Shown: in pieces, positions 1,800 to 60,515 of the stretch | Layout of the letters: each line of letters begins with the position of its first letter | Position numbering within the stretch: position 1 is the first letter of the stretch | DNA from: Escherichia phage FL33 | Sequence record: PP400788 | DNA length: 64,000 nucleotides | Reading direction: 5' to 3' (one strand) | Notes under the pieces: model-generated | What the model was told of the DNA's origin: nothing | Databases searched by the model: none | What the model saw: the letters and a program-made list of their open reading frames with translations, nothing else | Program-made: the position numbers and the translations under genes

Positions 1800-2018
1800 T
1801 TATGTTTTGCGACTAAATTGTTCATAGTGCTGAATTACCTCTCTTAAACATTTGCATGTGAATGAAAACTTTTTAGCTACACCACATTCAAATATATGTT
1901 CTCTTAAATCACGTGTATCGGTATATCCCATCTCAACAATAAAATGCCGTATTAAATTTTTATCTTTATCATTGAGAGAATTAAAATAGTCAGATTTTGA
2001 ATTAATTTCCCTGGCCAA
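1800..2018 (-). CDS. Hypothetical protein (asiA-motA interval)
   Basis: 72-aa ORF, co-oriented, several Cys residues. Confidence 0.45.
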   Translation of the reverse strand: MAREINSKSDYFNSLNDKDKNLIRHFIVEMGYTDTRDLREHIFECGVAKKFSFTCKCLREVIQHYEQFSRKT

Positions 2019-2298
2019 ATTGAATCACCTTCAGTTGACGTTTTAGCTCTTTTATCATCTCTTCGTTCATCGCAATATAAAGATCGCGTAAAGCAGGTTT
2101 TAGCATTCCATTTACCGGAGAACTAAATGGGCATACATAATCTTTTCCTACAAGCTTTTTGGTAAATTCCATATCACAAAATTTAAATGCTGGCTCATTC
2201 GCATAAATTCCCCAATTGGTTGACATCATTTTATTAGCATATTCCAGTGCCTGGATTTGATTCATAATTCCATCAATTTGAAACTTTTTAATATTCAT
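2002..2298 (-). CDS. Hypothetical protein (arn-region of T4-like phages)
   Basis: 98-aa ORF; position corresponds to T4 arn/arn.x block; identity not verifiable here. Confidence 0.5.
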   Translation of the reverse strand: MNIKKFQIDGIMNQIQALEYANKMMSTNWGIYANEPAFKFCDMEFTKKLVGKDYVCPFSSPVNGMLKPALRDLYIAMNEEMIKELKRQLKVIQFGQGN

Positions 2299-2759
2299 TA
2301 GTAAAGGTCCTCAGAGTAAAGTTCTTTTTCACTACCACCACGTTCAATACGTACTTGTCCAGCGTAAGTTGCAATAATCATTGCTTCTTCACGTGTCCAA
2401 TAATTACTATATTGGTCAATAAACCCTTGGTCATCATCACAAACTTGTTGAGTAACTAATTGAGGTTTAACTACATCTAAAACTTCTGCCATATCTTTAG
2501 AATAATGACGAGCACCTGGAATAATAAGAGTTCGTCCATCTTTTAATTTAAAACGGTTGGCTGCGCAAACAATTCGTCGTTGATACTTTTGGTTTTCATC
2601 CCAATACGCAGTCTGCCAACAGATTTCAGGAACTTCTTTCAGAATATCTTCTTCTGTGCATTTATAACCGTGTGCTTTAAATTTTTGAACAAGACTTTCT
2701 GGAGTCTCACGAGATAAAGGAACATTCAGCATTTTTAAACGATTAATAAATGGGTTCAT
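2298..2759 (-). CDS. Hypothetical protein
   Basis: 153-aa ORF, stop/start abutting neighbours. Confidence 0.55.
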
Positions 2760-3095: not shown

Positions 3096-3731
3096 TCACA
3101 GTTCAGATGCTACAGTGATTACAGCTTCAATGTTTTCTGCTGAGCGTTTAATGTCAAGATACACATTACCGTTTTTAGCGATTTTACAAGACATTCCGAT
3201 ATCAGTAAATTTCTGAATATGATGTTCCATCATTTTGTATCCAAAAATTCGCATGTTTCCATTGTTGTTAATTTCAAAATTGCGAATTCCGTGAGTGCGT
3301 TTTTCTAAAATAGCAAGATAGTTACTGCGGTAAGTTTCAACCTTTTTAAGAACAAATCCATTTTCATCTAAAAGTTTTAACATGAGGTCTTTATCTTCTT
3401 CCATATCAGAAGTAATCTCACGAGCTTTACGAGTAGCACGTTTTTTCAGAAGTTCTGGAGCATTTTCCTGTGCATATAAAGTTGCTGCATTTGAAATAAT
3501 ATCTTGCGCTTCGCCTGTAATGATTAATCCATCACCTGATTTCTCTACCAGGCCTTTTTTAATTAATACCCCAATATTACTATTAACTACTGCGTTACCT
3601 AAATCTGGATGCACCTCACGAACTTCTGCAGCTGTAATGAAATCTTTCTTAGCAATAGTAATTAAAATCGCAGCAGTTTTTTCATTCAGAACATCGTTAG
3701 AAGCTTTGATGATGTAAGTTACTTTAGACAT
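3096..3731 (-). CDS. motA: Middle transcription activator MotA
   Basis: 211 aa as in T4 MotA; position between asiA block and gene 52. Confidence 0.88.
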   Translation of the reverse strand: MSKVTYIIKASNDVLNEKTAAILITIAKKDFITAAEVREVHPDLGNAVVNSNIGVLIKKGLVEKSGDGLIITGEAQDIISNAATLYAQENAPELLKKRATRKAREITSDMEEDKDLMLKLLDENGFVLKKVETYRSNYLAILEKRTHGIRNFEINNNGNMRIFGYKMMEHHIQKFTDIGMSCKIAKNGNVYLDIKRSAENIEAVITVASEL

Positions 3732-3772
3732 TTTCTAATCTCCGTAATTCTGTATCAGTAGTTGATAGTTGT

Positions 3773-3801
3773 ATAGTACCACAGTATGCTTTGGTTGTAA
3801 A
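3773..3801 (-). promoter_or_regulatory. Early sigma70-type promoter (member of repeated element)
   Basis: Minus-strand TTTACA-17bp-TACTAT within conserved ~50-bp element upstream of motA. Confidence 0.6.
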
Positions 3802-3811
3802 CCGTTTTGTG

Positions 3812-3854
3812 AAAAAAATTTTTGAAATAAAAAAGGGAGAGCCGAGGCTCTCCC
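3812..3854 (-). terminator. Intrinsic terminator after gene 52
   Basis: GGGAGAGCC-TCGG-CTCTCCC hairpin followed on the minus transcript by a U-run. Confidence 0.65.
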
Positions 3855-4005
3855 TAAAATTATTGCATGACTGTGATAACTGTCATGATAACACGTTGAA
3901 TGCCGAACGCAAGAAGACCTCCTGCTACGGCTGGAACAACACCTAAACCCGCCAGTAAAATGCTACCGGATACTAATGCAGCGCTTGTAATACCTATGAA
4001 TGGAC

Positions 4006-5334
4006 TCATTTGATTTCCTCTAAATCTTTGGTGTATTCTGTAACTACATCAGTAGTTTTCCAATATTCGTTTTCTTCTTTTTTAGCTTTAGCTTCTTCAG
4101 CAAGTTTCTTTGCTTCATCAGAAGTCATATGAAAAATATTCATACCAACTAGTTTATCAACATAAGAAGAATACATATCAATTTTAGAAAGTTCTTCGGT
4201 CAGTTCTTTACGAGTTTTACCTTGAACAACAATTTCACCTGAAATTACTTTCTTAATGAAATGCGCCTTGGCAAAGGCTAAACGAAAAGCTGACTCAGTT
4301 TCTTTGATTTTGTTATCAATTCGTTTTTGGACATAAGTTTTACGAACTTCAACAAAGTCTTTAATTAAATCGACTACGTTATCGTAAACTTGTAGCTTTC
4401 CTTTCTCATTAATAACCGTAATATTCTGAGAACGACGCTCAATCAACCCGAAGTCTTTCATAATTTTCGCGTGACGTTCTTCTTCGTTATCGCTCAAAGC
4501 GTATTCTTTGCGGAATTTAACTTTAAAGCCAAAACCATGCTCACCACAAGCATCATCCCATGTAATGAAGCCTTTATCTTCAAGTGGATCTAAAATTTTG
4601 CTCACATAAGTTTCACGATCATACTTATACGGAATCTCAGTGATATGCATTTGAGTTCGTGAAGTAAACTTATATGTTCCACGAATTTCATATTGTCCAT
4701 CAATTTCAACGACTTCACCACGAAATTCTGGGAATTCTACCTTCGGTTTAGTTACTTTCTTTCCTTGAAGAGCTTGTAGTACAGCTTTCTTGACAGAAGA
4801 AACACTATGAGGAAGAATGTAAGTTGCATAACCAGTTGCAATACCGGAAACGCCATTAAGAAGAACAGTAGGAATAATAGGCAAATAGAAAGCAGGCGGA
4901 ATGTGTTCTTTATCTTGATGTACCGGAGCATATTCAGTATCTTTATATACGTTATAGAAATTTTTACTTACACGAGCAAAAATATAACGACTTGCCGCTG
5001 CCTTTTGGACAGTACGAGAACCAAAGTTTCCTTGACCATCTAATAGAGGAAAGTTATTATTCCAAGTATTAGCCATCAAAGCACCTGCGTCTTGCGCAGA
5101 GTTTTCACCATGATGATATCCAAGGTCCGCTACACCGCCTGCGATAGAAGCGAGTTTGTGAAACTTATCTTTATTTCCTCGTGCCAAATCAAGAGCTCGA
5201 GCAATAACAAATCGTTGAACTGGCTTAAATCCGTCAATCATATTTGGGATAGCACGATTTTCAACCGTGTACATAGCATAAGCCAATGCTTCATTATCAA
5301 TGATACTTTTTAAATCGCGATTATTCAGTTGCAT
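4006..5334 (-). CDS. 52: DNA topoisomerase II medium subunit gp52
   Basis: 442 aa, same as T4 gp52; GyrA-like motifs; conserved position next to stp/ndd. Confidence 0.93.
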   Translation of the reverse strand: MQLNNRDLKSIIDNEALAYAMYTVENRAIPNMIDGFKPVQRFVIARALDLARGNKDKFHKLASIAGGVADLGYHHGENSAQDAGALMANTWNNNFPLLDGQGNFGSRTVQKAAASRYIFARVSKNFYNVYKDTEYAPVHQDKEHIPPAFYLPIIPTVLLNGVSGIATGYATYILPHSVSSVKKAVLQALQGKKVTKPKVEFPEFRGEVVEIDGQYEIRGTYKFTSRTQMHITEIPYKYDRETYVSKILDPLEDKGFITWDDACGEHGFGFKVKFRKEYALSDNEEERHAKIMKDFGLIERRSQNITVINEKGKLQVYDNVVDLIKDFVEVRKTYVQKRIDNKIKETESAFRLAFAKAHFIKKVISGEIVVQGKTRKELTEELSKIDMYSSYVDKLVGMNIFHMTSDEAKKLAEEAKAKKEENEYWKTTDVVTEYTKDLEEIK

Positions 5335-5338
5335 AAAT

Positions 5339-5479
5339 TTACCATACTAGTGAATGTAGTGCCATAATAACATCAGAAATGAAAAGCACGACTTGAATTA
5401 ATCCGAACATTACTCCATAATATAACGCTATTAATAAAATAGCAAGGGCTAATGAATAGCCCAAGATTTTCTTAATCAT
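5339..5479 (-). CDS. Small hydrophobic protein (46 aa), 52.1-like
   Basis: ATG overlapping upstream stop (ATGA); hydrophobic; below ORF-track size cutoff. Confidence 0.45.
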   Translation of the reverse strand: MIKKILGYSLALAILLIALYYGVMFGLIQVVLFISDVIMALHSLVW

Positions 5480-5630
5480 TAGTAGATAACAACACAAATG
5501 TTAAATATGCACACATACCCTGGGCTAAAGCTTGTGAAAACACACTGCTAGCATCGATACAGATAGTTAAAACACATGCTACTATCCAACAAATAAATGA
5601 AATAACTCCTAATAATTTTGCGATATTCAT
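5472..5630 (-). CDS. Small membrane protein (52 aa), ac-like
   Basis: 52-aa hydrophobic ORF; start overlaps stp stop; T4 ac is about 51 aa at this position (memory). Confidence 0.5.
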
Positions 5631-5716
5631 ATTTTCCTCTGGCGTCCGAAGACGCCTTTGATTTTAAGATTGTTACGATAAAACTGCATCACATGTTCGT
5701 TATGGAAATTACTCAT
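5627..5716 (-). CDS. stp: Stp peptide (activator of PrrC anticodon nuclease / inhibitor of EcoprrI)
   Basis: 29-aa [32 protein letters not shown] matching remembered T4 Stp; ATG overlaps ndd stop. Confidence 0.75.
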
Positions 5717-6163
5717 TAATATGCCTGCAAAACAAATTTAAAGTTATCAGCCAACATACGGTTCATTTCTTCAAGTGTTTGATACTCAGAATGATGATTA
5801 CGAGTAAACGCTAAAGCTAACTGTCCTTTTCCAAATCCCGTCGTCAGAGGTTTCATCTTAGAAGCAGGCAGATAAAATACTGTGTATGGAACATTGTTAT
5901 TTGCAATAGTACGTGCAAGCTGAGACCGACGTTGACGAATATGACTTAGAACTGCGCTGAATCCTTGCTTAGAACGTTGATTACCTACATAAAATCGTGC
6001 AGACACACATGGATTACTAAATGGACGACCATCTAATTTACTTACTAAAAAGTTTAGATAAAATATCTTTATGTGGAACTCCCAAAAACCATTCACCGTT
6101 CTTGATTGTACCAATAACAGTAGCGCCTGCGTTGTTCAGATCAGTAACAGTCATATATTTCAT
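5716..6163 (-). pseudogene. ndd: ndd (nucleoid disruption) disrupted by frameshift
   Basis: ATG at 6163 opens 41 codons ([37 protein letters not shown]..) then stop at 6038-6040; remaining ~110 codons (..[23 protein letters not shown]..) are in +1 frame with no ATG. Confidence 0.7.
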
Positions 6164-29003: not shown

Positions 29004-29012
29004 ACTTACTCC

Positions 29013-29369
29013 TTAAAAGAATTTAAATTTTTTCTTTGACCTTTTATTAAATGCATCTTGTAGTTGCATTGTAATACATTTTTCTACATGAGGAGCTAAC
29101 TCAGCTTTTCTTTCTTGGTCAAGAACAGCAAAGTCCATTACGACTTTTCCATCAACCCAATCTAATTTTGTCACATACACAATGTGTGTAGAACCATCTT
29201 CTAGTTTAATGATAATCTCCTGGATAACATTTTCCATGGCAGATTTAATTATCTTAAGAGATTCATTAAAAAGACGTTCTTTTCTTTCTTCTTCCCCCTC
29301 CGAAGAGGGGGATTCGTCGATAATTTCTAAATCTAAATCATCTTTATTCATTAAATTCTTCCATATCAC
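29013..29369 (-). CDS. 40: gp40-like head assembly protein
   Basis: 118-aa ORF between 41 and uvsX. Confidence 0.6.
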   Translation of the reverse strand: MIWKNLMNKDDLDLEIIDESPSSEGEEERKERLFNESLKIIKSAMENVIQEIIIKLEDGSTHIVYVTKLDWVDGKVVMDFAVLDQERKAELAPHVEKCITMQLQDAFNKRSKKKFKFF

Positions 29370-30525
29370 TTAACTGATCTAGGTCAGTTTCTAAATCAGC
29401 TGCTGATTTACTTTTACTTTCTGGAGATTTAAATTTTTCAACCTTTGAGTTAATTAATTCATCAACTTCGGCTTCAACAATTTCATTACTATCAATAGCA
29501 CCTAATTGATAAGCACGTTTAATAGCATCTCGGAATGGTTGATGCTTAAATAAAGGACCCCAGAATGTAGTGCAGTTGGTATCTTTTGCACGCCAAGATT
29601 TTTCTTCGCGAATCATCTCGCCTGTTTCTTCGTCAAGAAATTCACGAGCATACCAGCCATTTTTAGGTTTTACTACAAATCCTAATTCAAGAGCCATATC
29701 TAACAATCCAGAATAAGGATCGATACCACCGTCAAATTTAACATCAATAAAGAATTTACTTTTTTCTTTAACGGTACGAGATTTTTCTACATTTAGAACA
29801 AATTGATACCCCTGAAGATCAGAACCATCTTTAATCTGGCGCTTACCGATAATGAATACAGTATCAGCCGAATACATTACGCCTGTACCACCTGTCATCA
29901 CGGTTTTACTAAACATTTCAATTGTTTCAATTGTATGGTTAACCGCAACGCATGGAATATTTTTAATACTAAAATAAGGAGTAACAATACGGAATAATGA
30001 CTTCAGCGATTTAGCACGAGTCATATCTGCCACAGATTTTTCATTCAAGGCATCTTCCGTTTCTTTCTTAGAAGCCATATTACCGATTGAGTCGATGAAT
30101 ACAATAACCTTTTCACCACGCTCAATAGCTTCAAGCTGATTCACCATATCAATTTTCAGTTGTTCAACTGACTGAATTGGTGTATGAATTACTCGTTCCG
30201 GGTCAACTCCCATGGATCGCAAATAAGCTGGAGTGATACCAAATTCGCTATCATAAAATAGACAAACTGCATCAGGATATTTGTTCAAATACGCCGCAAC
30301 CATAGTCAAAGACATATTTGATTTAAAGTGTTTAGAAGGACCTGCAAAAATGGTTAAACCAGACTGCATACCACCATCAATCGCACCGGAAATAGCAATA
30401 TTAAGCATTGGGATTTTTGTACGGATTACATCCTTTTCATTAAAGAATTTAGATGTAGTCAGTTCAGCAGTCATTTTAGAAGTGGAAGCTTTAATCAAAC
30501 GGGATTTTAAATCTGCAATAGACAT
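29344..30525 (-). CDS. uvsX: Recombinase UvsX (RecA/Rad51-like)
   Basis: 393 aa; N-terminus and core highly similar to remembered T4 UvsX. Confidence 0.95.
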   Translation of the reverse strand: MSIADLKSRLIKASTSKMTAELTTSKFFNEKDVIRTKIPMLNIAISGAIDGGMQSGLTIFAGPSKHFKSNMSLTMVAAYLNKYPDAVCLFYDSEFGITPAYLRSMGVDPERVIHTPIQSVEQLKIDMVNQLEAIERGEKVIVFIDSIGNMASKKETEDALNEKSVADMTRAKSLKSLFRIVTPYFSIKNIPCVAVNHTIETIEMFSKTVMTGGTGVMYSADTVFIIGKRQIKDGSDLQGYQFVLNVEKSRTVKEKSKFFIDVKFDGGIDPYSGLLDMALELGFVVKPKNGWYAREFLDEETGEMIREEKSWRAKDTNCTTFWGPLFKHQPFRDAIKRAYQLGAIDSNEIVEAEVDELINSKVEKFKSPESKSKSAADLETDLDQLSDMEEFNE

Positions 30526-30602
30526 TCATTTTTTCCATAGGCATCATTATATTTTCCTCACCGGTTAAAGATAGAGTAATTATAACACAATAAATTTAGG
30601 CA

Positions 30603-31445
30603 TTAATCAACTACTATTGGATGAATAGCATTAAACTTATGAAACGCTTCTGATTTTTCTTTGCGCGAAACACACATGCGAAGAACCTTTAATGGCTCAT
30701 CTTCTTCACCCAACGATTTTCTCTTTTCAATATTCGATGTTTTCCAACGAGCTTGCTCTGGAAATTCTCTATTGATTTGCTCAAGCGCTCTATTATGTTT
30801 AGAATTGCTACGAATTGAACTACATCCACCGGGGGCTTGTGCTTTTCCGGATACAACCAGATATTTGAACAAGGCCAAATGCGGATAACCTTGATTAATT
30901 AAATTGAGAAATGCATACATATCTTCGCATAAATCAATTTTTCCATACCCAATTTGTTCTGTTGTAAGTTTTCCAAGGTCATACCATGTATTCGTGAATC
31001 CATATGAATTTTCACGATAATTACCCCAAGATGAAGTAATTTTAAAAATAGGTAGACGAGCATGGCCATGATAATACCCGCAATCCATGGCATCTTCAAC
31101 GTATTGAATCAATTCATAGAACTGTTCACGAGTTAATTGATTAATTTTATCTACGCAGCGACGATCATCTTTCTTTCGCATTGAACTCATACGAATAGTA
31201 GTATCATCATCGATCATCCAAATTCGTTGACCTGCATACATATCAGTAATTGCTTTACGAGTACCGGCAATTCCATTAACATCATCAGGAATAGCTATAA
31301 TTTTAGCTCTAGACCCATAAGCATCATAATAAGCTTTTTCTTCGTGTTCACGCACTACAATATGGGGTTCATAATCAGTCGGAAACATATTAAGGGCAGA
31401 AACTGCCCCGACACGCTGATAACTTGGAATTACGAATTGAATCAT
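30603..31445 (-). CDS. Glycosyltransferase, GT-A/GT2-like (hydroxymethylcytosine sugar transferase candidate)
   Basis: 280 aa; N-terminal VIPSYQRVG and WMIDDD DxD motif; occupies the T4 beta-gt locus but unlike T4 beta-gt. Confidence 0.6.
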   Translation of the reverse strand: MIQFVIPSYQRVGAVSALNMFPTDYEPHIVVREHEEKAYYDAYGSRAKIIAIPDDVNGIAGTRKAITDMYAGQRIWMIDDDTTIRMSSMRKKDDRRCVDKINQLTREQFYELIQYVEDAMDCGYYHGHARLPIFKITSSWGNYRENSYGFTNTWYDLGKLTTEQIGYGKIDLCEDMYAFLNLINQGYPHLALFKYLVVSGKAQAPGGCSSIRSNSKHNRALEQINREFPEQARWKTSNIEKRKSLGEEDEPLKVLRMCVSRKEKSEAFHKFNAIHPIVVD

Positions 31446-32083
31446 TTAAGTGCCTTACATTTGTCAAAATGGTATCTTGTCATATTTGGCCCACGTCCTT
31501 TTAGTCCGCAATGCGGACATATTTTTTCTATCAAATTATGAGGTTTTCCTTTACGATTTTTAGACATCGTTTCTTTAATTATTTTAGCTTTTTCTGCGCC
31601 AAAAATTTCTTCATAAGTTTTACCAGAATTTTCCTTTGCTCGATTTATAATTCCATATGCCTGCTCATTTTTACCATACATTGGATTACCTTCGCCTTTC
31701 ATTCTTTTAGAATGGTCAGGACGCTTAATTCCACGAAAGGCATTTCCACATTTATATCTTTCTTCTGGAGATAGTTTCTTACCGTACATTCCATTTAATT
31801 TGCCCGGAAAACTTCCTCCCCATGCTTCATTCTTTAAATTATATGAATCTGGACAATTAGCAGCATCTAAACAAGTTAAAATAATTTCTTCAACCTGTCT
31901 AAACATTGGTCCTTCATATAATATTTCTTTATTAAAGGATTTTATTCCATATTTCTTTTTAGCATGTTGCCAAACTACACCCGAACCATCATAATTCAGG
32001 TTGTGACCATCATGACTTCCTATATACCACTTTTTAGTTTTAGGATGTTTATACTTATAAACATGTGGCGCATTTACTTCCAT
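31442..32083 (-). mobile_element. Free-standing GIY-YIG homing endonuclease gene (Seg-like)
   Basis: 213 aa; N-terminal VYKYKHPKTKKWYIGS GIY-YIG motif, NUMOD3-like repeats (GKLNGMYGK, GEGNPMYGK), C-terminal CPHCG..C; overlaps gene 42 end and glycosyltransferase start. Confidence 0.7.
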
Positions 32084-32814
32084 TTTCCAGTATAATCCTT
32101 TTTAGCAATATGGGTTTCACCGGTGTTCCACCAATGGTCAACCAAATAAAACTGATTTTCGTACACATGAAGACTTCCAACATTCCATATAATAGAACCT
32201 GCTTTATACTGTCGTGATGGGTCGCCTGCATTCAAATCAGATACTAATTTATCTAGTACGTATTTTTGCCACGCATAATCATTACGATAGCCTGCCCAGC
32301 AGTCATTGCTTCTCATATTAACAACTGCATTGACTTTCTTATCACGAATTAAGTATTGTACTGTATTAGTACACATGAAATCTGACATACCATCTTTATT
32401 GTAGTCAAATTGCATGGATGGACGAGTATAAATCATGATACCACGTCGAGAATCAGGATTTTGACCAAGTTCAGCTAAACACATATCATACTGGGCATAG
32501 TTATCTTCTGACCAGATAGCCCAACCATAATTCGAGTTAATTTCGCCTTTAGAAGATGCTACTTGCTGCCAAATCTTCGGTGTTTCACCCGGAATATCTT
32601 TAACGAACAAGCTTTTAGATTTATACCATTCAAGTTCACGCTGAATGTATTCATCATTAAGAGCGCCAAAAATAAACGGTTCATCTGCTACAAATGATGC
32701 GCCAATAATTTCAATAGTTTTAACACCAGTTTTATCAACTACGAAATCTTTTTCTTTTAATGCAAGCCCCAAATGAAGACGGATTTCTTCAACTGTCATA
32801 GAGTCACTAATCAT
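32074..32814 (-). CDS. 42: dCMP hydroxymethylase gp42
   Basis: 246 aa as T4 gp42; thymidylate-synthase-like fold. Confidence 0.93.
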   Translation of the reverse strand: MISDSMTVEEIRLHLGLALKEKDFVVDKTGVKTIEIIGASFVADEPFIFGALNDEYIQRELEWYKSKSLFVKDIPGETPKIWQQVASSKGEINSNYGWAIWSEDNYAQYDMCLAELGQNPDSRRGIMIYTRPSMQFDYNKDGMSDFMCTNTVQYLIRDKKVNAVVNMRSNDCWAGYRNDYAWQKYVLDKLVSDLNAGDPSRQYKAGSIIWNVGSLHVYENQFYLVDHWWNTGETHIAKKDYTGKWK

Positions 32815-32821
32815 TTAAACC

Positions 32822-32971
32822 TCAATTGATACATTCATATTTAACTTGTAACAGTAATAAACCCCAACCTAAAATAATAGTTGGAATCATAAGAGGAACC
32901 GTTACACTATAGTATATACTTATTATAATCATCAAGATTAAAAGCAACACTGCTATAATTTTGCTTTTCAT
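32822..32971 (-). CDS. Small membrane protein (49 aa)
   Basis: Hydrophobic ORF whose ATG overlaps imm stop (ATGA); below ORF-track cutoff; coordinates approximate. Confidence 0.4.
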   Translation of the reverse strand: MKSKIIAVLLLILMIIISIYYSVTVPLMIPTIILGWGLLLLQVKYECIN

Positions 32972-33219
32972 TCCTTCTCTCTGATGATAATTACCTGATT
33001 TGGTTGTGCAGACTTTTTGGTTTCACCCGCAATTGACCAAATAAATGTAATAAACCAACCAATAATTGACCAGTTAAACAGTAAAGATGTGAAAAAGATT
33101 CCTACTGTCGATTTTGACCCACGCATCAAGGCGATGAACCATGGAAGCATGTATATAATAATAGCCAACACACCTGAAACTAAAACCATAAAAATTGAAC
33201 CTGCTACTAAAGTTTCCAT
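32968..33219 (-). CDS. imm: Superinfection immunity protein Imm
   Basis: 83-aa two-TM membrane protein at T4 imm position between 42 and 43. Confidence 0.85.
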   Translation of the reverse strand: METLVAGSIFMVLVSGVLAIIIYMLPWFIALMRGSKSTVGIFFTSLLFNWSIIGWFITFIWSIAGETKKSAQPNQVIIIREKE

Positions 33220-33226
33220 CTTTTCC

Positions 33227-33607
33227 TCACTTAGTCAAATTTTTTACGCATGAATTATAAGAATTCACTACATACTCCATCGGAGCATTTTTACCAGTAC
33301 GCCATTGGTAATTATTAGCCCAATTAGCCCAAATTTCGGCGCAGTAGTTTTCAATTTTTTCTTCGCGTGTAATTACATCTGAATTACGATATGCTTGGGC
33401 AGATTCATCTGGACGAATAGCCTCATCAAAATTCGCCTGCATTTGTTCTACTGTCTGTTTTGGAGCTTCTTTATAACACTTGACATTAGGATTATAAAAC
33501 TTGCTTGAACAGTTTACAATTTTTCCTACATCAGACTGATTTACTACCGGTCCTTGAGCTACACAACCAGTAAGACCTAATGCAATAACCAAAATAGCGA
33601 TTTTCAT
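33227..33607 (-). CDS. Putative lipoprotein (126 aa)
   Basis: ATG at 33607 with GGAGA RBS; lipobox LTGC after signal peptide. Confidence 0.6.
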   Translation of the reverse strand: MKIAILVIALGLTGCVAQGPVVNQSDVGKIVNCSSKFYNPNVKCYKEAPKQTVEQMQANFDEAIRPDESAQAYRNSDVITREEKIENYCAEIWANWANNYQWRTGKNAPMEYVVNSYNSCVKNLTK

Positions 33608-33641
33608 TTCATTCTCCAAATCCGTATCAGTTGATAGTTGT

Positions 33642-33670
33642 ATAGTACCATGGAAGAACAGTCTTGTAAA
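33642..33670 (-). promoter_or_regulatory. Early sigma70-type promoter (repeated element)
   Basis: TTTACA-17bp-TACTAT with conserved flanks. Confidence 0.6.
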
Positions 33671-33744
33671 CAGTTTTGTGAAAAATTTTTCAATGAATTC
33701 AAAGGGTCCAGAATTATCTGTTTTTCATAAGTATAGATTTATAT

Positions 33745-33776
33745 TACTTGTATGAAAAAGGGACCCGGAGGTCCCT
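33745..33776 (-). terminator. Intrinsic terminator after gene 43
   Basis: AGGGACC-UCCG-GGUCCCU hairpin then UUUUUCAUA on minus transcript. Confidence 0.6.
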
Positions 33777-33788
33777 AGATTTATTCTA

Positions 33789-36485
33789 TCAGCCAAACAG
33801 GAAGTCTAACGAAGCTTTTTCTTCATAGTCCATACCAGCCGATTCACACATACCCGCAAGCGGTTTAACAAACGATTTTTGGAACAAAGTTGAGTAGTCA
33901 ATCCAAGACAGTACGTCAGAACGAATTTCTTTTGGAAGTTCCGTACCCGATGGCCAAGCAATACACTTGTCACCAAATGGATTTCCCTCACGTAATGGAA
34001 GAACCATTACTTTATTTCCATCCAAAATTGGAGCTACACCTAAACCGCTAACAGCTCGACGATAAGTTAGCACCCCACGAATGTGGAACGGGCATTTAAA
34101 TCCTGGCCAACCTTTATCGTCATATTTCGCTATATCGTTTGCGGTTTTTACTTCAGCAATAACTTTATAGTCAAGTTGACGATATTCTTTCTCAAAGTTC
34201 TTATAGTATTCTTGGACAGACTCTTCACCTTCCTGAAGAATGCGACGAATACTTTCTTCGAGAGCTTCTTGTACTGCTTTTGGTGTTGAACTCTGCTGAG
34301 TTTCCATACCCATGATTTTTAGATGTGGTTCAGCAAATCGCTTATCTTCCATATCATAAACGTTTAGAGCATAACGTTTTTTCGCTTTCCAAAATCCACC
34401 AACACCCTTTGAACCAAGCGGAGGACAAGAAATAGCTTCACGGTCCATATGCATCAGATGCTCGCGGTTATTCATATAATCACATAACTCACGATATGCA
34501 ACATCAATCATAGGTTCCATCTTTTTCTTACCGAACTGATTCATGAATTCAACTAAATCATTTTGTTCTTTAAAGCGGTCAAGACCTACTTTTTCAATTA
34601 CTTTATCTACACAAACATATACCGAATCAGTATCACCTGCTGCGATGAAATCTTCACCATCAGTTCCACATACTTTATTCAGATATTCATTAATTTTACG
34701 AGCAATCCACTGAATACCAACTTGACCAAAAATTGTGATAGCAGTAGCATTTCGCAAATCATAATAGCGGAAATGAATATTGCCAAGAGCACCATAAAGA
34801 CTGTTAATAAGAATTTTACGGTTCAGCTGATTTGTGTTAGCAAGTGTAGCTGCTTTTTCACATTCTTCGATCAGACTATTAAGAACAGATTCGGTGTAAT
34901 TCGATAATTCATTTAAGAAATCATCATTGAACTTAACATATCGTTCAACTTCTGGTTTAGTTGAACAAGACCCTGCACCTTTCATAATAATCTTTTTAAT
35001 AGCTTCGGCATTCATTTCTTCAGCGAACATTTTCTTTTTCCAATCTTTACGCTGGAAAAATACTTTAGCGATTTCCTTTGGAATGATACCTTCTTGATGC
35101 TTATCATACATCCATCCATTCGGAGAACATGAATACTCATCACTTGGCTTAGGAGCTGTTCCTGCGATATATTCATGAATTGGATGAACTTTGAACTGTC
35201 CGCGAATAGTCTCAGGACTAATGTTAACCTGACGAATAATACTTGGATACAGAGACGTCAAGTCAAAACTCATAATGTATCGACGGGCAATCGCTTTAGG
35301 TTCAAACACAAATGCACCTGGAAAACTTTGTTTAACGTGCGAACCTTGTTGAGGAATAACCTTATGTTCACCTTTCAATGAGTTAAAAATAATAGCATCC
35401 CAAGTTTTAATAGGACTCATTACACCAGAAAAAGGCATTTTAGCATAATAAGACATACTTAAAACTAGATCGATAAACCCACGAATTTTATCAATTGCTT
35501 GAACTGATTCTACGTCAATAATATTATAACTAATGTATCGTTGATGATTAGTCTCACGAAGTTTATTAATAGGACCATCATATGGTAATTTACCTTTTTT
35601 GGTTTCATGTTGAGCAACTGATTCCAAAGAGAATGATGGCAAATTAGTAAATGCGAATTTCTTGTACAAATCTAAATAATCAAGAATAGATACGCCATCA
35701 ATAGAATAAATTTCTTTGCTACCGTACATATTTTGAATTAGTTTAGATTTTACTCGACCGATTGGAGAGAAGCGTTTCATACTACGTTCACCGAGAACCA
35801 TTTTAACACGATTCATGATATACGGAACGTCAAATCCCTCAATATTCCAACCGGTAAAAATAGCAGGTCGTTTCTGTTCCCAGAGATTAATATATTCCAT
35901 GAGCATATCACGCTCATTATCAAATGGCATATAAATTACTCGGTCAAGAATTTCTTGAGGAACTTCATCACCACCTTCACAGTCAAGCTTAGCAGCTAAC
36001 TTTGCATCCCATTTTGATACTGAACCGTACATTGAATTCAACAAATCAAAGACGTAAAAACGGTCGTCAATTGAATCATAATGAGTGATAGCATCAATTT
36101 CATATTCTGCTTTCATTGGGTCAGGAAATTTATCGCCAGTAACCTCAATGTCACAGTTAGCTACACGAACAAATTTTCGGTCATAAACAATTTCTGAACC
36201 ATATGTATCACTGATATAAGCGAGTTTAAAATCGTTCATACCGAGAGCTTCGAGACCGATGTCTTCCATTCGTTTCATCCAATCTCGGGCATCTTTCATT
36301 GATGGAAATTTTTGAGGAGCGCAGTTTTTACCGTAAATGTCTTTGTATTTTGATTCTTCCTTACAATGTCTAAACATAGTCGGAAGATATTCTACTTCAC
36401 GAGTACGTTCCTTTCCATTTTCATCAATATAACGTTCAACAATATTATTTCCGACTGTTTCGATAGAGATATAAAATTCTTTCAT
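33789..36485 (-). CDS. 43: DNA polymerase gp43 (family B)
   Basis: 898 aa; near-identical to remembered T4 gp43. Confidence 0.97.
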   Translation of the reverse strand: MKEFYISIETVGNNIVERYIDENGKERTREVEYLPTMFRHCKEESKYKDIYGKNCAPQKFPSMKDARDWMKRMEDIGLEALGMNDFKLAYISDTYGSEIVYDRKFVRVANCDIEVTGDKFPDPMKAEYEIDAITHYDSIDDRFYVFDLLNSMYGSVSKWDAKLAAKLDCEGGDEVPQEILDRVIYMPFDNERDMLMEYINLWEQKRPAIFTGWNIEGFDVPYIMNRVKMVLGERSMKRFSPIGRVKSKLIQNMYGSKEIYSIDGVSILDYLDLYKKFAFTNLPSFSLESVAQHETKKGKLPYDGPINKLRETNHQRYISYNIIDVESVQAIDKIRGFIDLVLSMSYYAKMPFSGVMSPIKTWDAIIFNSLKGEHKVIPQQGSHVKQSFPGAFVFEPKAIARRYIMSFDLTSLYPSIIRQVNISPETIRGQFKVHPIHEYIAGTAPKPSDEYSCSPNGWMYDKHQEGIIPKEIAKVFFQRKDWKKKMFAEEMNAEAIKKIIMKGAGSCSTKPEVERYVKFNDDFLNELSNYTESVLNSLIEECEKAATLANTNQLNRKILINSLYGALGNIHFRYYDLRNATAITIFGQVGIQWIARKINEYLNKVCGTDGEDFIAAGDTDSVYVCVDKVIEKVGLDRFKEQNDLVEFMNQFGKKKMEPMIDVAYRELCDYMNNREHLMHMDREAISCPPLGSKGVGGFWKAKKRYALNVYDMEDKRFAEPHLKIMGMETQQSSTPKAVQEALEESIRRILQEGEESVQEYYKNFEKEYRQLDYKVIAEVKTANDIAKYDDKGWPGFKCPFHIRGVLTYRRAVSGLGVAPILDGNKVMVLPLREGNPFGDKCIAWPSGTELPKEIRSDVLSWIDYSTLFQKSFVKPLAGMCESAGMDYEEKASLDFLFG

Positions 36486-58796: not shown

Positions 58797-59516
58797 TTAG
58801 GATTCTTCTAAATGTCTTTTCTGAAAAGTTGATACCATACTACGATACGGTTCATTTGGATATCCATGTTTTATAGCTTCCTTTGTAAATTTTCTCCATC
58901 CACATTTAGTTTCTTTCCAAAGCTCGAATAATTCATCTTCATACTGCCATATAGTTAAATGAGAACGCTTTGCAGCTTTAATTCCATTAATATGCTTTTC
59001 TTTTACTACAGGATTGCTTAGTTTCTTTTTAATAATATTACTAACTTTTCTAACAAAAACTGGGTCCTTATATCGTTGCGAAGTTTTTATTGAAGTGTTT
59101 AATTTAGCTTCCGGCGTGGATGTGACCTCTTTCATCTTTTTCTTCATATGCTGTATATGATTAGGATTTTTCCATAAATTTATAGAATGCTTTTTGCATT
59201 TTATCCTAGTTTCATCTGCAACCTTTCCTCCTTCACCCCCGTATGACAGGTTAACGCAGTTTTTTCCATATTTCAATTTACCTGCCATGATATATAATAT
59301 TTCGGCTTGTACCATTTTATCATAATTATCAAAAACTTCTAAAACCGTTTTTGATAATATATGGTCATTTGACACTTTTACACGTTCTATATAATTTCCA
59401 CTACCAACATACGAATCATTGATGTTATTAGTTATATGTCGACCATAATAGTATTTCTTAATACCTGTCTTTAAATTTAATATTTCAGTTTTATAGATAG
59501 TAAAATATTTTTTCAT
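58797..59516 (-). CDS. Putative GIY-YIG-like homing endonuclease (candidate mobile gene)
   Basis: 239 aa; N-terminal KKYYYGRH..SYVGSG resembles GIY-x10-YIG; Lys-rich C-terminal half; start overlaps upstream ATPase stop. Confidence 0.45.
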   Translation of the reverse strand: MKKYFTIYKTEILNLKTGIKKYYYGRHITNNINDSYVGSGNYIERVKVSNDHILSKTVLEVFDNYDKMVQAEILYIMAGKLKYGKNCVNLSYGGEGGKVADETRIKCKKHSINLWKNPNHIQHMKKKMKEVTSTPEAKLNTSIKTSQRYKDPVFVRKVSNIIKKKLSNPVVKEKHINGIKAAKRSHLTIWQYEDELFELWKETKCGWRKFTKEAIKHGYPNEPYRSMVSTFQKRHLEES

Positions 59517-60481
59517 TTTAATAATACCGTTTCAGCAATTTCTTCCCAACCGTTTTTGTCGGTCATAATAAAGTCAGCAAGATAAAGAGCAGTACGCAGT
59601 GAAACATTGCGTAAACGATTAACATTAACTTTCATCCATGATAATGCTTTATAAGTTTCTTCATCAGAAAGACCGCGCTTTTGCATCATGTCAGTTGAAA
59701 GAATAACATCTTCAACCCTGACCATAATTTCTTCATTGGTGTGAACACCCAAATCCAAATAAACTGAGCGGGACACTAATGCTTGTAAGTGTGGGGCAAG
59801 TTTAGTACCACGGTCTAATTCGCGGTCAATATCAACGTTTGTGATAAAAACAATCGTTCCTTTAAATTCAAACTCACGGTCAATGCCTTTTTCTTCTAAG
59901 TAAGAAGATGCAGTGCTCCAGCAGACTTTACGGGTCTCTCCAGTGTCCAGAGCGGCTTTTAGAAGATTAAGAATATCCATATCAGAGAAAACATCCACAT
60001 CATCAATCAAAAGGACAGAATTCTCTTCACGATTATTCCAAAGCTGCTCATAAAGACCAATACCAGAGATTTTACCATTAATGCTTTTATATTCAATGTA
60101 TCCAATATCATTTGCTTTATTTAAAGCTTTATCTAAAGAATACGTTTTACCAATACCTGCTGCGCCAGAGATAATTAATGAACGAATATTTCCATTAATA
60201 ATACCATTCGTCATCATTCCCATAACATTAAATCTTTTATTAATGCGGGTTTTCATATCTTCATATGATTCTTTAACTTCTTCAACTTTTACACCATCAT
60301 ATGAAATATCTGATTTGTAAACCCAAACACCACGACGTTTACCGTCAATTTCAACAAAAACTTTACCATCTCCTTGTGCATCTACCGGAGCATTATCTGG
60401 GAACCATTCGCCTAAGAGCTCAAAAGTTCCAGAGATTTCTTTACCGAAGTAGATACCCTTATTGATAGTTACAGTTTTCAT
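59513..60481 (-). CDS. P-loop NTPase (AAA-like ATPase), function unknown
   Basis: 322 aa from ATG at 60481; Walker A GAAGIGKT, Walker B VLLIDDVD; own promoter upstream. Confidence 0.7.
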   Translation of the reverse strand: MKTVTINKGIYFGKEISGTFELLGEWFPDNAPVDAQGDGKVFVEIDGKRRGVWVYKSDISYDGVKVEEVKESYEDMKTRINKRFNVMGMMTNGIINGNIRSLIISGAAGIGKTYSLDKALNKANDIGYIEYKSINGKISGIGLYEQLWNNREENSVLLIDDVDVFSDMDILNLLKAALDTGETRKVCWSTASSYLEEKGIDREFEFKGTIVFITNVDIDRELDRGTKLAPHLQALVSRSVYLDLGVHTNEEIMVRVEDVILSTDMMQKRGLSDEETYKALSWMKVNVNRLRNVSLRTALYLADFIMTDKNGWEEIAETVLLK

Positions 60482-60515
60482 TTTATTCTCCAAATCCGTA
60501 TCAGTTGATAGTTGT

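What the first reader, a model, noticed from the sequence alone, without database searches (positions are those of the whole stretch)
31442..32083. Free-standing GIY-YIG homing endonuclease wedged between gene 42 and the glycosyltransferase
The 213-aa ORF has a canonical GIY-YIG N-terminus (VYKYKHPKTKKWYIGS), NUMOD3-like DNA-binding repeats and a cysteine-containing C-terminus. Its start overlaps the end of gene 42 by 10 nt and its TGA overlaps the ATG of the downstream glycosyltransferase. It is therefore an intron-less homing-type endonuclease inserted with no intergenic space, likely to drive marker exclusion of flanking alleles in mixed infections. As far as I recall this is not where T4 carries a seg gene.
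Basis: partly seen in the sequence, partly recalled or inferred. Interest (0 to 1): 0.5.

Follow-up and report, generated by a model that had tools for sequence, protein, structure and literature searches.

The report
Seg-type homing endonuclease beside gene 42
This is a real, intact selfish-DNA nuclease gene (a free-standing GIY-YIG "Seg-like" homing endonuclease) sitting between two DNA-modification genes of a T-even phage; it is an ordinary kind of element, but it belongs to a subfamily that is always found just after the same enzyme gene in very different phages.

Summary
The 213-aa ORF (31442..32083, minus strand) is real. It overlaps gene 42 by 10 nt and the downstream glycosyltransferase by ATGA. 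That transferase is the T2/T6-type beta-alpha-gt, not T4 beta-gt.

It is a Seg-family GIY-YIG protein:
- BLASTP to T4 SegC gives 4e-13.
- PHROG 314 gives 6e-31.
- The family profile and the AlphaFold model both pick the I-TevI catalytic domain first.

It also has sub-threshold NUMOD3 repeats and an invariant C-terminal CCHC zinc finger.

It is polymorphic. It is present in 77 of about 500 T-even records and cleanly absent (632 bp) from most others. The same filled/empty slot exists in Klebsiella Jiaodavirus.

Among filled phages the ORF and the adjacent 3' end of gene 42 have very low diversity (0.008, 0.018), against about 0.04-0.06 in the other flanks. Filled-versus-empty divergence peaks (0.17) only in the 3' end of gene 42. 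Filled phages are not a clade.

All 18 relatives examined at 45% identity or more lie directly after a gene-42-like (thymidylate-synthase-family) gene. None of 31 more distant Seg-like relatives does.

The best reading is an active or recently active homing endonuclease that targets the 3' part of gene 42. Cleavage itself is untested. It is a new member of a known kind.

The parts
31442..32083 (-). 213-aa free-standing Seg-like GIY-YIG homing endonuclease gene
   Evidence: ORF. PHROG 314 'homing endonuclease' E=5.6e-31. BLASTP to T4 SegC/B/D/A/E gives 4e-13 to 6e-7. Present in 77 T-even records at 95-100% identity. dN/dS 0.10-0.49 against homologs.
31814..32068 (-). N-terminal GIY-YIG catalytic domain (about residues 6-90), with Y9, Y20-I-G22, Y31-x-G33-S34-G35, E65 and N82
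   Evidence: These positions are invariant or nearly invariant in the 31-sequence family alignment. The family profile's best PDB hit is the I-TevI catalytic domain 1LN0, E=0.0014. The AlphaFold2 model has pLDDT 91-97 for residues 11-80. The top three Foldseek PDB hits are I-TevI 1MK0/1LN0, probability 1.00, TM 0.63-0.68.
31664..31801 (-). Linker with two NUMOD3-like repeats (about residues 95-140)
   Evidence: Pfam NUMOD3 scores 17.9 bits, below the 20.4 cutoff, with the best stretch at residues 125-138. 21 of 31 family members hit NUMOD3 at E<=0.01. This is the lowest-confidence part of the model, pLDDT 56-78.
31457..31519 (-). C-terminal CCHC zinc-finger-like module, C189-x2-C192 ... H205-x3-C209 (CPHCGLKGRGPNMTRYHFDKC)
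   Evidence: C189, C192, H205 and C209 are invariant in the family. The model predicts beta-beta-alpha (E186-188, E195-197, H199-208). The motif is found nowhere else in the window or in the fetched T4 regions. The same module occurs on other endonuclease-like proteins in IMG/VR.
32074..32083 (-). 10-nt overlap with gene 42. The ORF's ATG is built from the last A of Lys244 and the TG of Trp245 of gene 42; gene 42 ends AAG TAA
   Evidence: Filled-specific substitutions at gene 42 nt 729, 730 and 732 create ...GGAAAATGG. Empty sites read ...GGTGAGTGGAAATGA.
31442..31445 (-). ATGA stop/start overlap with the glycosyltransferase gene. It reproduces the gene 42/gt ATGA overlap of empty sites
32075..32323 (-). 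3' part of gene 42 that travels with the ORF (gene 42 nt 492-740). It has four blocks of filled-versus-empty differences: 32287..32323 (residues 164-176, CWAGY vs VVFGF), 32212..32221 (PS vs ST), 32152..32161 (ENQ vs SRH) and 32075..32125. It holds the probable target and immunity determinants
   Evidence: Identity to empty-site phages falls to 78-88% only here. Collection-wide the region is bimodal: 74 records >=95%, 416 at 80-90%, against a control with 480 >=95%. There are 41 fixed differences in four blocks; 9 remain (nt 690-740) when the recombinants are included. The same pattern appears in Jiaodavirus, and alleles group by ORF status across genera.
32074..32814 (-). Gene 42, dCMP hydroxymethylase (upstream neighbour and inferred target gene)
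   Evidence: Pfam Thymidylat_synt. PDB 1B49 at E=1e-160, with Cys148 and Asp179 aligned.
30603..31445 (-). T2/T6-type beta-glucosyl-HMC-alpha-glucosyltransferase (downstream neighbour; not part of the mobile unit)
   Evidence: Pfam TAGT E=4e-10. Annotated as beta-glucosyl-HMC-alpha-glucosyltransferase in T2, RB3 and others. No fixed filled/empty differences in its first 300 nt, and diversity is at background level.

Best explanation
The ORF encodes a functional free-standing homing endonuclease of the T4 Seg type. It has an N-terminal GIY-YIG nuclease domain, a NUMOD3-like linker and a C-terminal CCHC zinc-finger DNA-binding module.

It has no promoter of its own that I could find. It is probably translated from the gene 42-gt message by coupling to the end of gene 42 (inferred).

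In a mixed infection with a T-even phage that has the empty 42/gt junction, the enzyme is inferred to cut the other phage's DNA within the last ~250 nt of gene 42. The break would then be repaired by phage recombination using the ORF-carrying genome as template. That copies the ORF together with the adjacent 3' segment of gene 42 into the recipient. The carrier's own gene 42 allele differs in short blocks, which presumably protect it from cleavage.

What is shown:
- family membership and fold;
- the clean insertion polymorphism, in two genera;
- the one-sided trough of diversity and peak of divergence in the 3' end of gene 42;
- lack of clade structure among filled phages;
- purifying selection on the protein;
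- strict adjacency of the whole subfamily to gene-42-like genes.

What is inferred: nuclease activity, the position of the cut, the immunity role of the allele blocks, and the mode of expression.
For: Family and fold.
- BLASTP to T4 SegC/B/D/A/E gives 4e-13 to 6e-7.
- PHROG 314 E=5.6e-31.
- The profile hits the I-TevI catalytic domain first, and so does Foldseek: probability 1.00, TM 0.68.
- 202 BFVD matches at E<=0.001, mostly named Seg-like, NUMOD3 or GIY-YIG endonucleases.
- Y9, Y20, G22, E65 and N82 are conserved.

Polymorphism.
- 78 of 505 records hold the full segment. Most others match as two pieces spanning 796 bp, a precise 632-bp absence.
- Jiaodavirus has empty (Kp122), filled (KP185) and frameshifted (Roth77) states of the same slot.

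Spread. In 6 filled and 6 empty phages:
- diversity among filled phages is 0.008 (ORF), 0.018 and 0.034 (gene 42 nt 601-741 and 451-600), against 0.041-0.059 elsewhere;
- filled-versus-empty divergence is 0.169 and 0.140 in the 3' part of 42, against 0.042-0.055 elsewhere;
- nearest neighbours in the flanks mix filled and empty phages.
- Collection-wide bimodality of the patch against a control stretch.
- Across genera, the 3' alleles of gene 42 group by ORF status, including a TCA versus AGC/AGT codon switch at Ser169.

Function. dN/dS is 0.10-0.49.

Target association.
- 7 of 7 looked-up relatives at 45-65% identity, and 11 of 11 IMG/VR relatives at 47% or more, lie directly downstream of a Thymidylat_synt-family gene, with unrelated genes on the other side.
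- 0 of 31 full-length relatives at 25-35% identity do.
Against: - No cleavage, target site or inheritance bias was measured.
- The catalytic Arg of I-TevI (R27) has no aligned counterpart. It falls in a ~10-residue gap of the family. The T4 Seg proteins share this feature.
- The sequence itself fails the Pfam GIY-YIG, Pfam SegE_GIY-YIG and NCBIfam TIGR01453 thresholds.
- The filled/empty differences in gene 42 come in tight, partly non-synonymous blocks separated by identical stretches. Simple hitch-hiking of a diverged donor tract would not look like that.
- Two empty phages (PD112, pSe) carry filled-type blocks, so block alleles and the ORF can be uncoupled.
- A few copies are frameshifted: PYps5T, REP2/REP3, BCH953P2, Roth04/67/77.
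- The population sample analysed in detail is only 12 phages.
Confidence: 0.75

Rival explanations
1. It is a domesticated nuclease kept for a benefit to the phage rather than for its own spread. Examples would be excluding competitor phages by cutting their gene 42 region, or promoting recombination or amplification of nearby genes, as recently reported for SegB. This overlaps mechanistically with homing and could be true in addition to it.
For: Long-term purifying selection, dN/dS 0.10-0.49. Stable association with one gene family across very different phages. A 2026 paper shows T6 SegB drives segmental amplification of anti-defence loci (PMC13096335).
Against: It is present in only about 15% of T-even records and about 7% of Klebsiella records that match gene 42. 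Several copies are frameshifted. The very low diversity of the ORF relative to its flanks fits recent horizontal spread better than long-term retention. No repeats or amplification were seen at this locus.
Confidence: 0.12
2. It is an ordinary accessory gene, inherited vertically and repeatedly lost by precise deletion. The neighbouring gene 42 differences would then be lineage history rather than co-conversion.
For: T-even genomes are mosaics with many variable small ORFs. PD112 looks like a filled-type gene 42 allele that has lost, or never had, the ORF.
Against: Filled phages do not cluster in the flanking genes. The ORF is four- to seven-fold less diverse than the surrounding essential genes. 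The same slot is polymorphic in a second genus, with the same allele blocks. Relatives at 45-65% identity keep the same upstream neighbour in unrelated genome contexts. The empty sites are identical, clean ATGA junctions.
Confidence: 0.08
3. It is a catalytically dead Seg relic that now acts only as a DNA- or RNA-binding regulator, for example an autorepressor or a translational regulator of gt, or has no function at all.
For: There is no counterpart of I-TevI Arg27. The sequence is sub-threshold for the curated GIY-YIG models. Its position between two translationally coupled genes would suit a regulator.
Against: The conserved Tyr/Tyr/Glu/Asn set is maintained across the family. The same Arg-less architecture occurs in T4 Seg enzymes that are listed as active (Table 1 of PMC2988022). 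The population signature of spread needs a drive mechanism.
Confidence: 0.05

Closest known systems
T4 SegA-SegG free-standing GIY-YIG homing endonucleases, especially SegF (soc/56, cuts gene 56) and SegG (32/59, cuts gene 32)
   Same: - About 210-225 aa with the same N-terminal motif set (Y..Y.G.H...Y.GSG...E...YN), at 31-37% identity over about 90-140 residues.
- Placed between conserved genes with overlapping or abutting reading frames.
- The inferred target lies in the neighbouring conserved gene rather than at the insertion point, with co-conversion of that gene's adjacent part. This is the behaviour described for Seg enzymes in PMC2988022 and PMC13096335.
   Different: - It is not an ortholog of any T4 seg gene; best identity is 37% to SegC.
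- It occupies a slot (42/gt) that is empty in T4, T2 and T6.
- It carries an invariant C-terminal CCHC zinc finger that is not found in the fetched T4 regions.
- One GenBank record labels it 'SegD', which is a misnomer.
- No biochemical data exist for it.
I-TevI (T4 td intron) and I-BmoI (Bacillus thyA intron), GIY-YIG endonucleases that target thymidylate synthase genes
   Same: The GIY-YIG catalytic fold. A modular layout of catalytic domain, linker and DNA-binding module, including a zinc finger (I-TevI per PMC2988022). Both are associated with a gene of the thymidylate-synthase fold family. That I-BmoI targets thyA is from my own knowledge and was not checked here.
   Different: - It is not intron-encoded: no Rfam match, and the genes are separate.
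- It lies after the 3' end of the gene, not inside it.
- It lacks the segment holding I-TevI Arg27.
- TIGR01453 scores 24.5 bits against a cutoff of 56.
- Its zinc finger is CCHC at the extreme C-terminus rather than in the linker.
Nuclease genes at boundaries of genetic exchange in phages (Barth et al. 2023, PMC10448857)
   Same: A free-standing endonuclease gene sits exactly at a boundary where sequence similarity between related phages changes abruptly on one side.
   Different: A different phage group and different nuclease lineages. I saw only the title and abstract of that paper and did not read the full text.

Membership tests
GIY-YIG nuclease superfamily | Two N-terminal Tyr-containing motifs ('GIY' ... 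'YIG') about 10-11 residues apart | tested here: met
   H7-V8-Y9 and Y20-I21-G22. Y9 is nearly invariant; Y20 and G22 are invariant in the 31-sequence alignment. They align to I-TevI I5-Y6 / Y17-V18-G19.
GIY-YIG nuclease superfamily | Conserved catalytic Glu (I-TevI E75) and Asn (I-TevI N90) | tested here: met
   E65 and N82 are nearly invariant. They fall in the aligned ...E..i.kel... and yN motifs of the profile-to-1LN0 alignment.
GIY-YIG nuclease superfamily | Conserved catalytic Arg (I-TevI R27) | tested here: inconclusive
   The R27 segment of I-TevI falls in a ~10-residue gap of the family profile. No Arg in the N-terminal domain is invariant. T4 SegA-E show the same gap. Whether another residue, such as H24 or R62, substitutes structurally was not examined.
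GIY-YIG nuclease superfamily | The alpha/beta GIY-YIG fold | tested here: met
   AlphaFold2 model with mean pLDDT 85, and 91-97 for residues 11-80. The top three Foldseek PDB hits are I-TevI 1MK0/1LN0: probability 1.00, TM 0.63-0.68, rmsd 2.8-3.0 A.
GIY-YIG nuclease superfamily | Passing the curated Pfam model (PF01541 or PF19835) | tested here: not met
   Neither model hits this sequence, even at E<=10. Among 31 family members, 6 hit PF01541 and 11 hit PF19835 SegE_GIY-YIG at E<=0.01.
T4 Seg family (free-standing GIY-YIG homing endonucleases) | Significant sequence similarity to SegA-G | tested here: met
   BLASTP: SegC 3.6e-13, SegB 3.2e-11, SegD 3.5e-9, SegA 1.7e-8, SegE 5.7e-7, SegF 1e-3. 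SegG is not significant. PHROG 314 E=5.6e-31 over residues 4-211.
T4 Seg family (free-standing GIY-YIG homing endonucleases) | Located between genes, not within an intron or intein | tested here: met
   It lies between intact gene 42 and gt. There is no Rfam match, including group I introns, at E<=1 in 29000-34000.
Homing endonuclease gene (functional definition) | Presence/absence polymorphism at one precise site in otherwise collinear genomes | tested here: met
   A 632-bp block is present in 77 T-even records and cleanly absent from most others. The same holds in Jiaodavirus.
Homing endonuclease gene (functional definition) | Co-conversion of flanking sequence, or other evidence of horizontal spread | tested here: met
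   One-sided low-diversity and high-divergence tract in the 3' end of gene 42, with no clade structure. This is population-level evidence, not an observed event.
Homing endonuclease gene (functional definition) | Site-specific cleavage of the allele that lacks the gene | not testable with these tools
   This needs the protein and DNA substrates. Candidate target blocks are named in the report.
Homing endonuclease gene (functional definition) | Super-Mendelian inheritance in mixed infections (localized marker exclusion) | not testable with these tools
   This needs phage crosses.
NUMOD3 DNA-binding repeat (PF07460) | Passing the Pfam gathering score | tested here: not met
   17.9 bits against a cutoff of 20.4, with two weak stretches. 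21 of 31 relatives hit at E<=0.01, best 4.5e-10. So the repeats are NUMOD3-like, but the score is below threshold in this copy.
Group I intron endonuclease (NCBIfam TIGR01453, I-TevI type) | Passing the curated cutoff, and an intron context | tested here: not met
   24.5 bits against a cutoff of 56.05. There is no intron.

The most novel reading that the evidence does not exclude
The ORF may be the driver of a cross-genus mobile cassette that includes a functional module of the target enzyme. On this reading, a Seg subfamily has specialised on gene-42-like pyrimidine hydroxymethylase genes. Each time it moves, it replaces the recipient's C-terminal third of the enzyme with its own allele: residues 172-176, lying between R168/S169 and Asp179, and residues 219-221, directly after H216-V-Y218. 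The selfish element would then shuffle active-site-proximal variants of a DNA-hypermodification enzyme between Tequatrovirus, Jiaodavirus and other phages, possibly with consequences for modification chemistry or for resistance to modification-dependent host defences.
Probability: 0.15. Interest if true: 0.6.

Novelty: new member of a known kind. Interest (0 to 1): 0.4.

Why it matters
Free-standing homing endonucleases are a major source of mosaicism and marker exclusion in T-even phages, but only the T4 set has been studied.

This one offers a clean, testable case. It has a defined empty site in the classic phages T2, T4 and T6. It has a short list of candidate target and immunity blocks in an essential, structurally solved enzyme (dCMP hydroxymethylase). 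It has natural recombinants (PD112, pSe) that uncouple those blocks from the gene, and an independent replicate in Klebsiella phages.

The strict tie of the whole subfamily to gene-42-like genes, set against its absence in more distant Seg relatives, gives a natural series for asking how GIY-YIG enzymes keep or switch targets.

There is also a practical point. Many therapeutic-candidate T-even phages carry it annotated as 'hypothetical protein' or, wrongly, 'SegD'.

Tried and rejected
- **Direct Pfam scan** of the ORF, even at E<=10, gave no GIY-YIG hit. Single-sequence phmmer against PDB gave only a chance hit to an ABC-transporter binding protein. I therefore moved to a family profile and a structure model.
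- **NCBIfam** gave only a sub-threshold TIGR01453 match.
- **Own promoter or terminator.** The sigma-70-type scan was not above shuffles: 17 found against 15.5 expected. There is no TATAAATA late promoter within 7 kb. I did not run a MotA-box (middle promoter) search.
- **RNA structure.** Folding around the start codon was not significant, z=-0.75. Around the stop/gt start z=-2.07, but the main hairpin lies inside gt and is also present in empty-site phages, so it does not belong to the element.
- **T4 segA or segD ortholog.** Rejected: 31% identity, a different slot, and segA-like genes coexist with it in phage Manna.
- **Intron-encoded.** Rejected.
- **Glycosyltransferase as the conserved partner.** Rejected: MHG19 has T4-type beta-gt downstream, and other relatives have unrelated genes there.
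- **Literature.** Four full-text searches and three papers inspected turned up no description of this gene. The library lacks most subscription-journal papers, so absence is not proof.
- **Cleavage site.** I could not assign one. A CNNNG-type argument by analogy with I-TevI would be speculation, and I did not pursue it.
Full report
**1. The observation**

The window is a T-even phage. The ORF region is 100% identical to Escherichia phage FL34, genus Tequatrovirus.

On the minus strand the gene order is:
- gene 43 (33789..36485);
- three small ORFs, of 130 aa (33227..33619), 83 aa (32968..33219) and 49 aa (32822..32971); relatives annotate imm.1, imm and 42.1 in this interval;
- gene 42 (32074..32814);
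- the 213-aa ORF (31442..32083);
- a 280-aa glycosyltransferase (30603..31445);
- uvsX (29344..30525).

The ORF's first 10 nt overlap the end of gene 42. Its TGA shares ATGA with the glycosyltransferase start.

The glycosyltransferase is the T2/T6-type beta-glucosyl-HMC-alpha-glucosyltransferase (Pfam TAGT; so annotated in T2 and RB3). It is not T4's 351-aa beta-gt.

Tight packing with overlaps is not unusual. In the T4 record, segF/56, segC/5.1 and mobC/nrdD/nrdG overlap in the same way.

**2. What the protein is**

Curated single-sequence models do not recognise it:
- Pfam reports no GIY-YIG domain, and NUMOD3 is below threshold at 17.9 against 20.4 bits.
- NCBIfam TIGR01453 scores 24.5 against 56 bits.
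- phmmer against PDB finds nothing meaningful.

Other evidence is decisive:
- PHROG 314 'homing endonuclease' matches residues 4-211 at E=5.6e-31.
- BLASTP against proteins I extracted from the T4 record gives SegC 3.6e-13, SegB 3.2e-11, SegD 3.5e-9, SegA 1.7e-8 and SegE 5.7e-7, at 31-37% identity over the N-terminal 90-140 residues. I-TevI, I-TevII and SegG are not significant.
- A 31-sequence family alignment has Y20, G22, G33 and the C-terminal C189, C192, H205, C209 invariant. Y9, Y31, S34, G35, E65 and N82 are nearly invariant.
- The profile's best hit among all PDB sequences is the I-TevI catalytic domain (1LN0, E=0.0014, positions 6-87).
- An AlphaFold2 model (mean pLDDT 85) has the I-TevI catalytic domain as its top three Foldseek PDB hits: probability 1.00, TM 0.63-0.68.
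- The model has 202 matches at E<=0.001 in the viral structure library, mostly named Seg-like, NUMOD3 or GIY-YIG endonucleases.
- Of the family members, 21 hit NUMOD3, 11 hit SegE_GIY-YIG and 6 hit GIY-YIG in Pfam.

One caveat. The segment holding I-TevI's catalytic Arg27 is absent from this family. It is also absent from T4 SegA-E, most of which are listed as active enzymes in the 2010 review (PMC2988022).

The C-terminal CPHC...GPNMTRYHFDKC module is predicted as a beta-beta-alpha zinc finger. It does not occur in the T4 regions I fetched (1-84,000, 100,001-125,000 and 134,001-168,903) or elsewhere in the window.

dN/dS between the window ORF and homologs at about 53-70% protein identity is 0.10-0.49, so the protein is under purifying selection. 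dS is saturated for several pairs, so the ratios are rough.

**3. It is not in an intron and not in a T4 seg slot**

No Rfam family matches 29000-34000 at E<=1. T4 has uvsX-segA-beta-gt-42, with 23 nt between beta-gt and 42 and no gene there. The review lists segA at uvsX/beta-gt and no seg gene at gene 42. The window has no segA; only 77 nt separate gt and uvsX.

One GenBank record (LR746311) calls this gene 'SegD', which the 31% identity to T4 SegD does not justify. Other depositors use 'hypothetical protein', 'putative homing endonuclease' or 'site-specific intron-like DNA endonuclease'.

**4. Insertion polymorphism**

A 1428-bp query spanning the ORF and about 390 bp of each flanking gene matches 505 phage records. 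Of these, 78 hold the full segment: 77 T-even records plus Klebsiella phage KP185 at 74.8% identity. Most of the others, including T2, RB3, RB6 and RB68, match as two pieces spanning exactly 796 bp. That is a clean absence of 632 bp. T4-type phages match only gene 42.

At nucleotide level the empty site reads ...GAG TGG AAA TGA TTC..., with the gene 42 stop overlapping the gt start. The filled site has the block inserted after TGG. It gives gene 42 a new AAG TAA ending, and it ends with its own AAATGA over the gt start.

The same three states exist in the genus Jiaodavirus: empty (JIPh_Kp122, ATGA overlap), filled (KP185) and frameshifted (Roth77).

By tblastn, 77 T-even records carry the protein at 95% identity or more, and 9 Klebsiella records at about 70%, three of them N-terminally truncated. 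A few T-even copies are 641 or 643 nt, meaning frameshifted or mis-sequenced: REP2/REP3, BCH953P2 and PYps5T.

**5. Signs of mobility**

*(a) Local divergence.* Identity between the window and empty-site phages is 91-100% across genes 43, imm, 42, gt and uvsX, but falls to 78-88% in the last 170-300 nt of gene 42. A filled phage stays at 96-98% there. The gt side shows no drop.

*(b) Collection-wide.* For the 267 nt of gene 42 next to the insert, 74 records are >=95% identical, 12 are 90-95% and 416 are 80-90%. For a control 267 nt in the middle of gene 42, 480 are >=95%, 22 are 90-95% and none is 80-90%.

*(c) Six filled and six empty T-even phages.*

| Segment | Diversity among filled | Filled vs empty |
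|---|---|---|
| ORF | 0.008 | not applicable |
| gene 42 nt 601-741 | 0.018 | 0.169 |
| gene 42 nt 451-600 | 0.034 | 0.140 |
| gene 42 nt 1-450 | 0.041 | 0.042 |
| gt nt 1-150 | 0.059 | 0.055 |
| rest of gt | 0.041 | 0.044 |

Nearest neighbours in the flanks mix filled and empty phages. The filled phages are therefore not a clade. The ORF plus the 3' end of gene 42 behaves as a young unit that has spread across older backgrounds.

*(d) Fixed differences.* Fixed filled/empty differences lie only in gene 42 nt 690-740 (9 sites), with none in the first 300 nt of gt. Leaving out two recombinant empty phages (PD112, pSe_SNUABM_01) gives 41 fixed differences in four tight blocks: nt 492-528, 594-603, 654-663 and 690-740. 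PD112 has filled-type blocks 1-3 but the empty-type end and no ORF.

*(e) Jiaodavirus replicate.* KP185 against Kp122 is 93-100% identical in both flanks. In the last ~280 nt of gene 42 it is 68-75% in four of the five 60-nt windows and 91% in the fifth. Identity recovers immediately in gt.

*(f) Across genera.* The 3' alleles of gene 42 group by ORF status rather than by genus. In nt 511-540, same-status pairs are 0.80-0.87 identical and mixed-status pairs 0.57-0.63. In nt 1-450 all these comparisons are essentially equal. The conserved Ser169 uses TCA in the empty phages in that alignment (T2, T4, HY01, Kp122) and AGC/AGT in the filled ones (window, Manna, MHG19, KP185). This synonymous codon-family switch is more easily explained by shared ancestry of the filled alleles than by convergence.

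**6. The partner is gene 42**

I looked up seven relatives at 45-65% identity in other collections. All lie directly downstream, on the same strand, of a Pfam Thymidylat_synt gene. The gene on the other side is different each time: T4-type beta-gt in Yersinia phage MHG19, small ORFs, a ResIII helicase, an NTP-transferase, dCMP deaminase plus PolA, or IMPDH.

A scan of IMG/VR keyed on the zinc-finger motif returned 80 loci. I tested them with an HMM of the gene-42-like proteins:
- **Full-length relatives at 47% identity or more:** 11 of 11 have such a gene upstream on the same strand, 9 within 48 nt and 2 at 212 nt.
- **Full-length Seg-like relatives at 25-35% identity:** 0 of 31 have one anywhere in the locus.
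- **Proteins sharing only the C-terminal part:** 4 of 38, and those four form one cluster.

The adjacency is therefore a property of this subfamily, not of Seg-like genes in general. This is what a conserved target specificity would produce.

The upstream proteins share gp42 motifs such as INSNYG and MRSND.

On the T4 dCMP hydroxymethylase sequence (PDB 1B49), with Cys148 and Asp179 aligned, the divergent blocks are:
- residues 172-176 (CWAGY against VVFGF), between R168/S169 and D179;
- residues 199-200;
- residues 219-221 (ENQ against SRH), right after H216-V-Y218;
- the C-terminus.

**7. Mechanism proposed**

*Shown:* a conserved, selected Seg-type GIY-YIG protein; a precise insertion polymorphism in two genera; a one-sided linked tract in the 3' end of gene 42; no clade structure; and subfamily-wide adjacency to gene-42-like genes.

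*Inferred:*
- The enzyme cuts the 3' third of gene 42 in phages that lack it, somewhere between about nt 490 and the junction.
- Repair from a co-infecting carrier copies the tract from the break through the ORF. This explains why linkage extends upstream into gene 42 but stops at the ORF's 3' end.
- The block substitutions protect the carrier's own gene 42.

*Expression.* Expression is probably by translational coupling to gene 42. The ATG lies 7 nt before gene 42's stop, with only a GGA directly in front. I found no sigma-70-type or late promoter and no significant RNA structure at the start.

*One feature does not fit simple hitch-hiking.* The differences are clustered in blocks separated by identical stretches, and are partly non-synonymous. 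This may reflect later homogenisation by recombination, or selection at nuclease contact points. I cannot tell which.

**8. Comparison, novelty and score**

The element works like T4 SegF and SegG. It qualifies as a Seg-family member by sequence and fold, but it is not an ortholog of any named seg gene. It has a distinctive CCHC C-terminus.

I found no paper describing it. The library lacks most subscription journals.

It is a new member of a known kind. What is mildly new is the subfamily's strict tie to gene-42-like genes across unrelated phage backgrounds, and the cross-genus sharing of the linked enzyme alleles. Interest: 0.4.

Noticed in passing
window 58797..59516 (minus strand): A second Seg-like GIY-YIG gene of 239 aa. 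Its start overlaps by 4 nt the end of the upstream 326-aa ORF (59513..60493), whose identity I did not test; a 104-aa ORF lies downstream. It is only 22-34% identical to T4 SegA-F, has no NCBIfam hit, and lacks the CCHC module.
   Followed up: partly
L009 (Salmonella phage pSe_SNUABM_01) 3817..5796: uvsX is annotated in two pieces (3817-4746 and 5655 onward) separated by a 'homing endonuclease' gene (4790-5512). This is a third endonuclease slot in the same 42-gt-uvsX neighbourhood.
   Followed up: no
L010 (PD112) 3620..4285; L027 (Manna) 5376..6041: A 221-aa gene annotated 'homing endonuclease' sits between the T2-type beta-alpha-gt and uvsX. It has the size and slot of T4 segA, but I did not compare the sequences. 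Manna carries both it and the 42/gt endonuclease, so the two slots are independent. The window has only 77 nt there (30526..30602).
   Followed up: partly
window 31393..31409 (minus strand), inside the 5' end of gt: A GC-rich hairpin, GGGGCAGTTTCTGCCCT, 37 nt into the glycosyltransferase gene was flagged as terminator-like. It is conserved in empty-site T2 and pSe, and with changes in KP185 and Kp122, so it belongs to gt rather than to the endonuclease. Its role is unknown.
   Followed up: partly
L023 (Roth77) 1882..2543; L025 (PYps5T) 3891..4533; records REP2/REP3 and OZ035785: Several copies of the endonuclease gene are frameshifted (641 or 643 nt, or split near codon 41). This could be early decay of the element or sequencing error; I could not tell which.
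   Followed up: partly
IMG/VR loci L042-L109: The C-terminal zinc-finger module (NM[TG]RYHF) appears on many proteins that match the query only over residues ~95-213 or ~150-213. This suggests the DNA-binding module is shuffled among endonucleases with different or highly diverged N-terminal parts.
   Followed up: no
L016/L017 4743..5390: The metagenomic contigs that carry family member P0041 also hold a second NUMOD3-containing 215-aa gene about 1 kb downstream. L042 and L043, which come from the same two samples, may be this gene.
   Followed up: no
whole window: The T4 late-promoter core TATAAATA occurs only twice in 64 kb (at 320 on the plus strand and 24074 on the minus strand), against about 10 expected from shuffles. 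This fits a window made mostly of early and middle genes.
   Followed up: no
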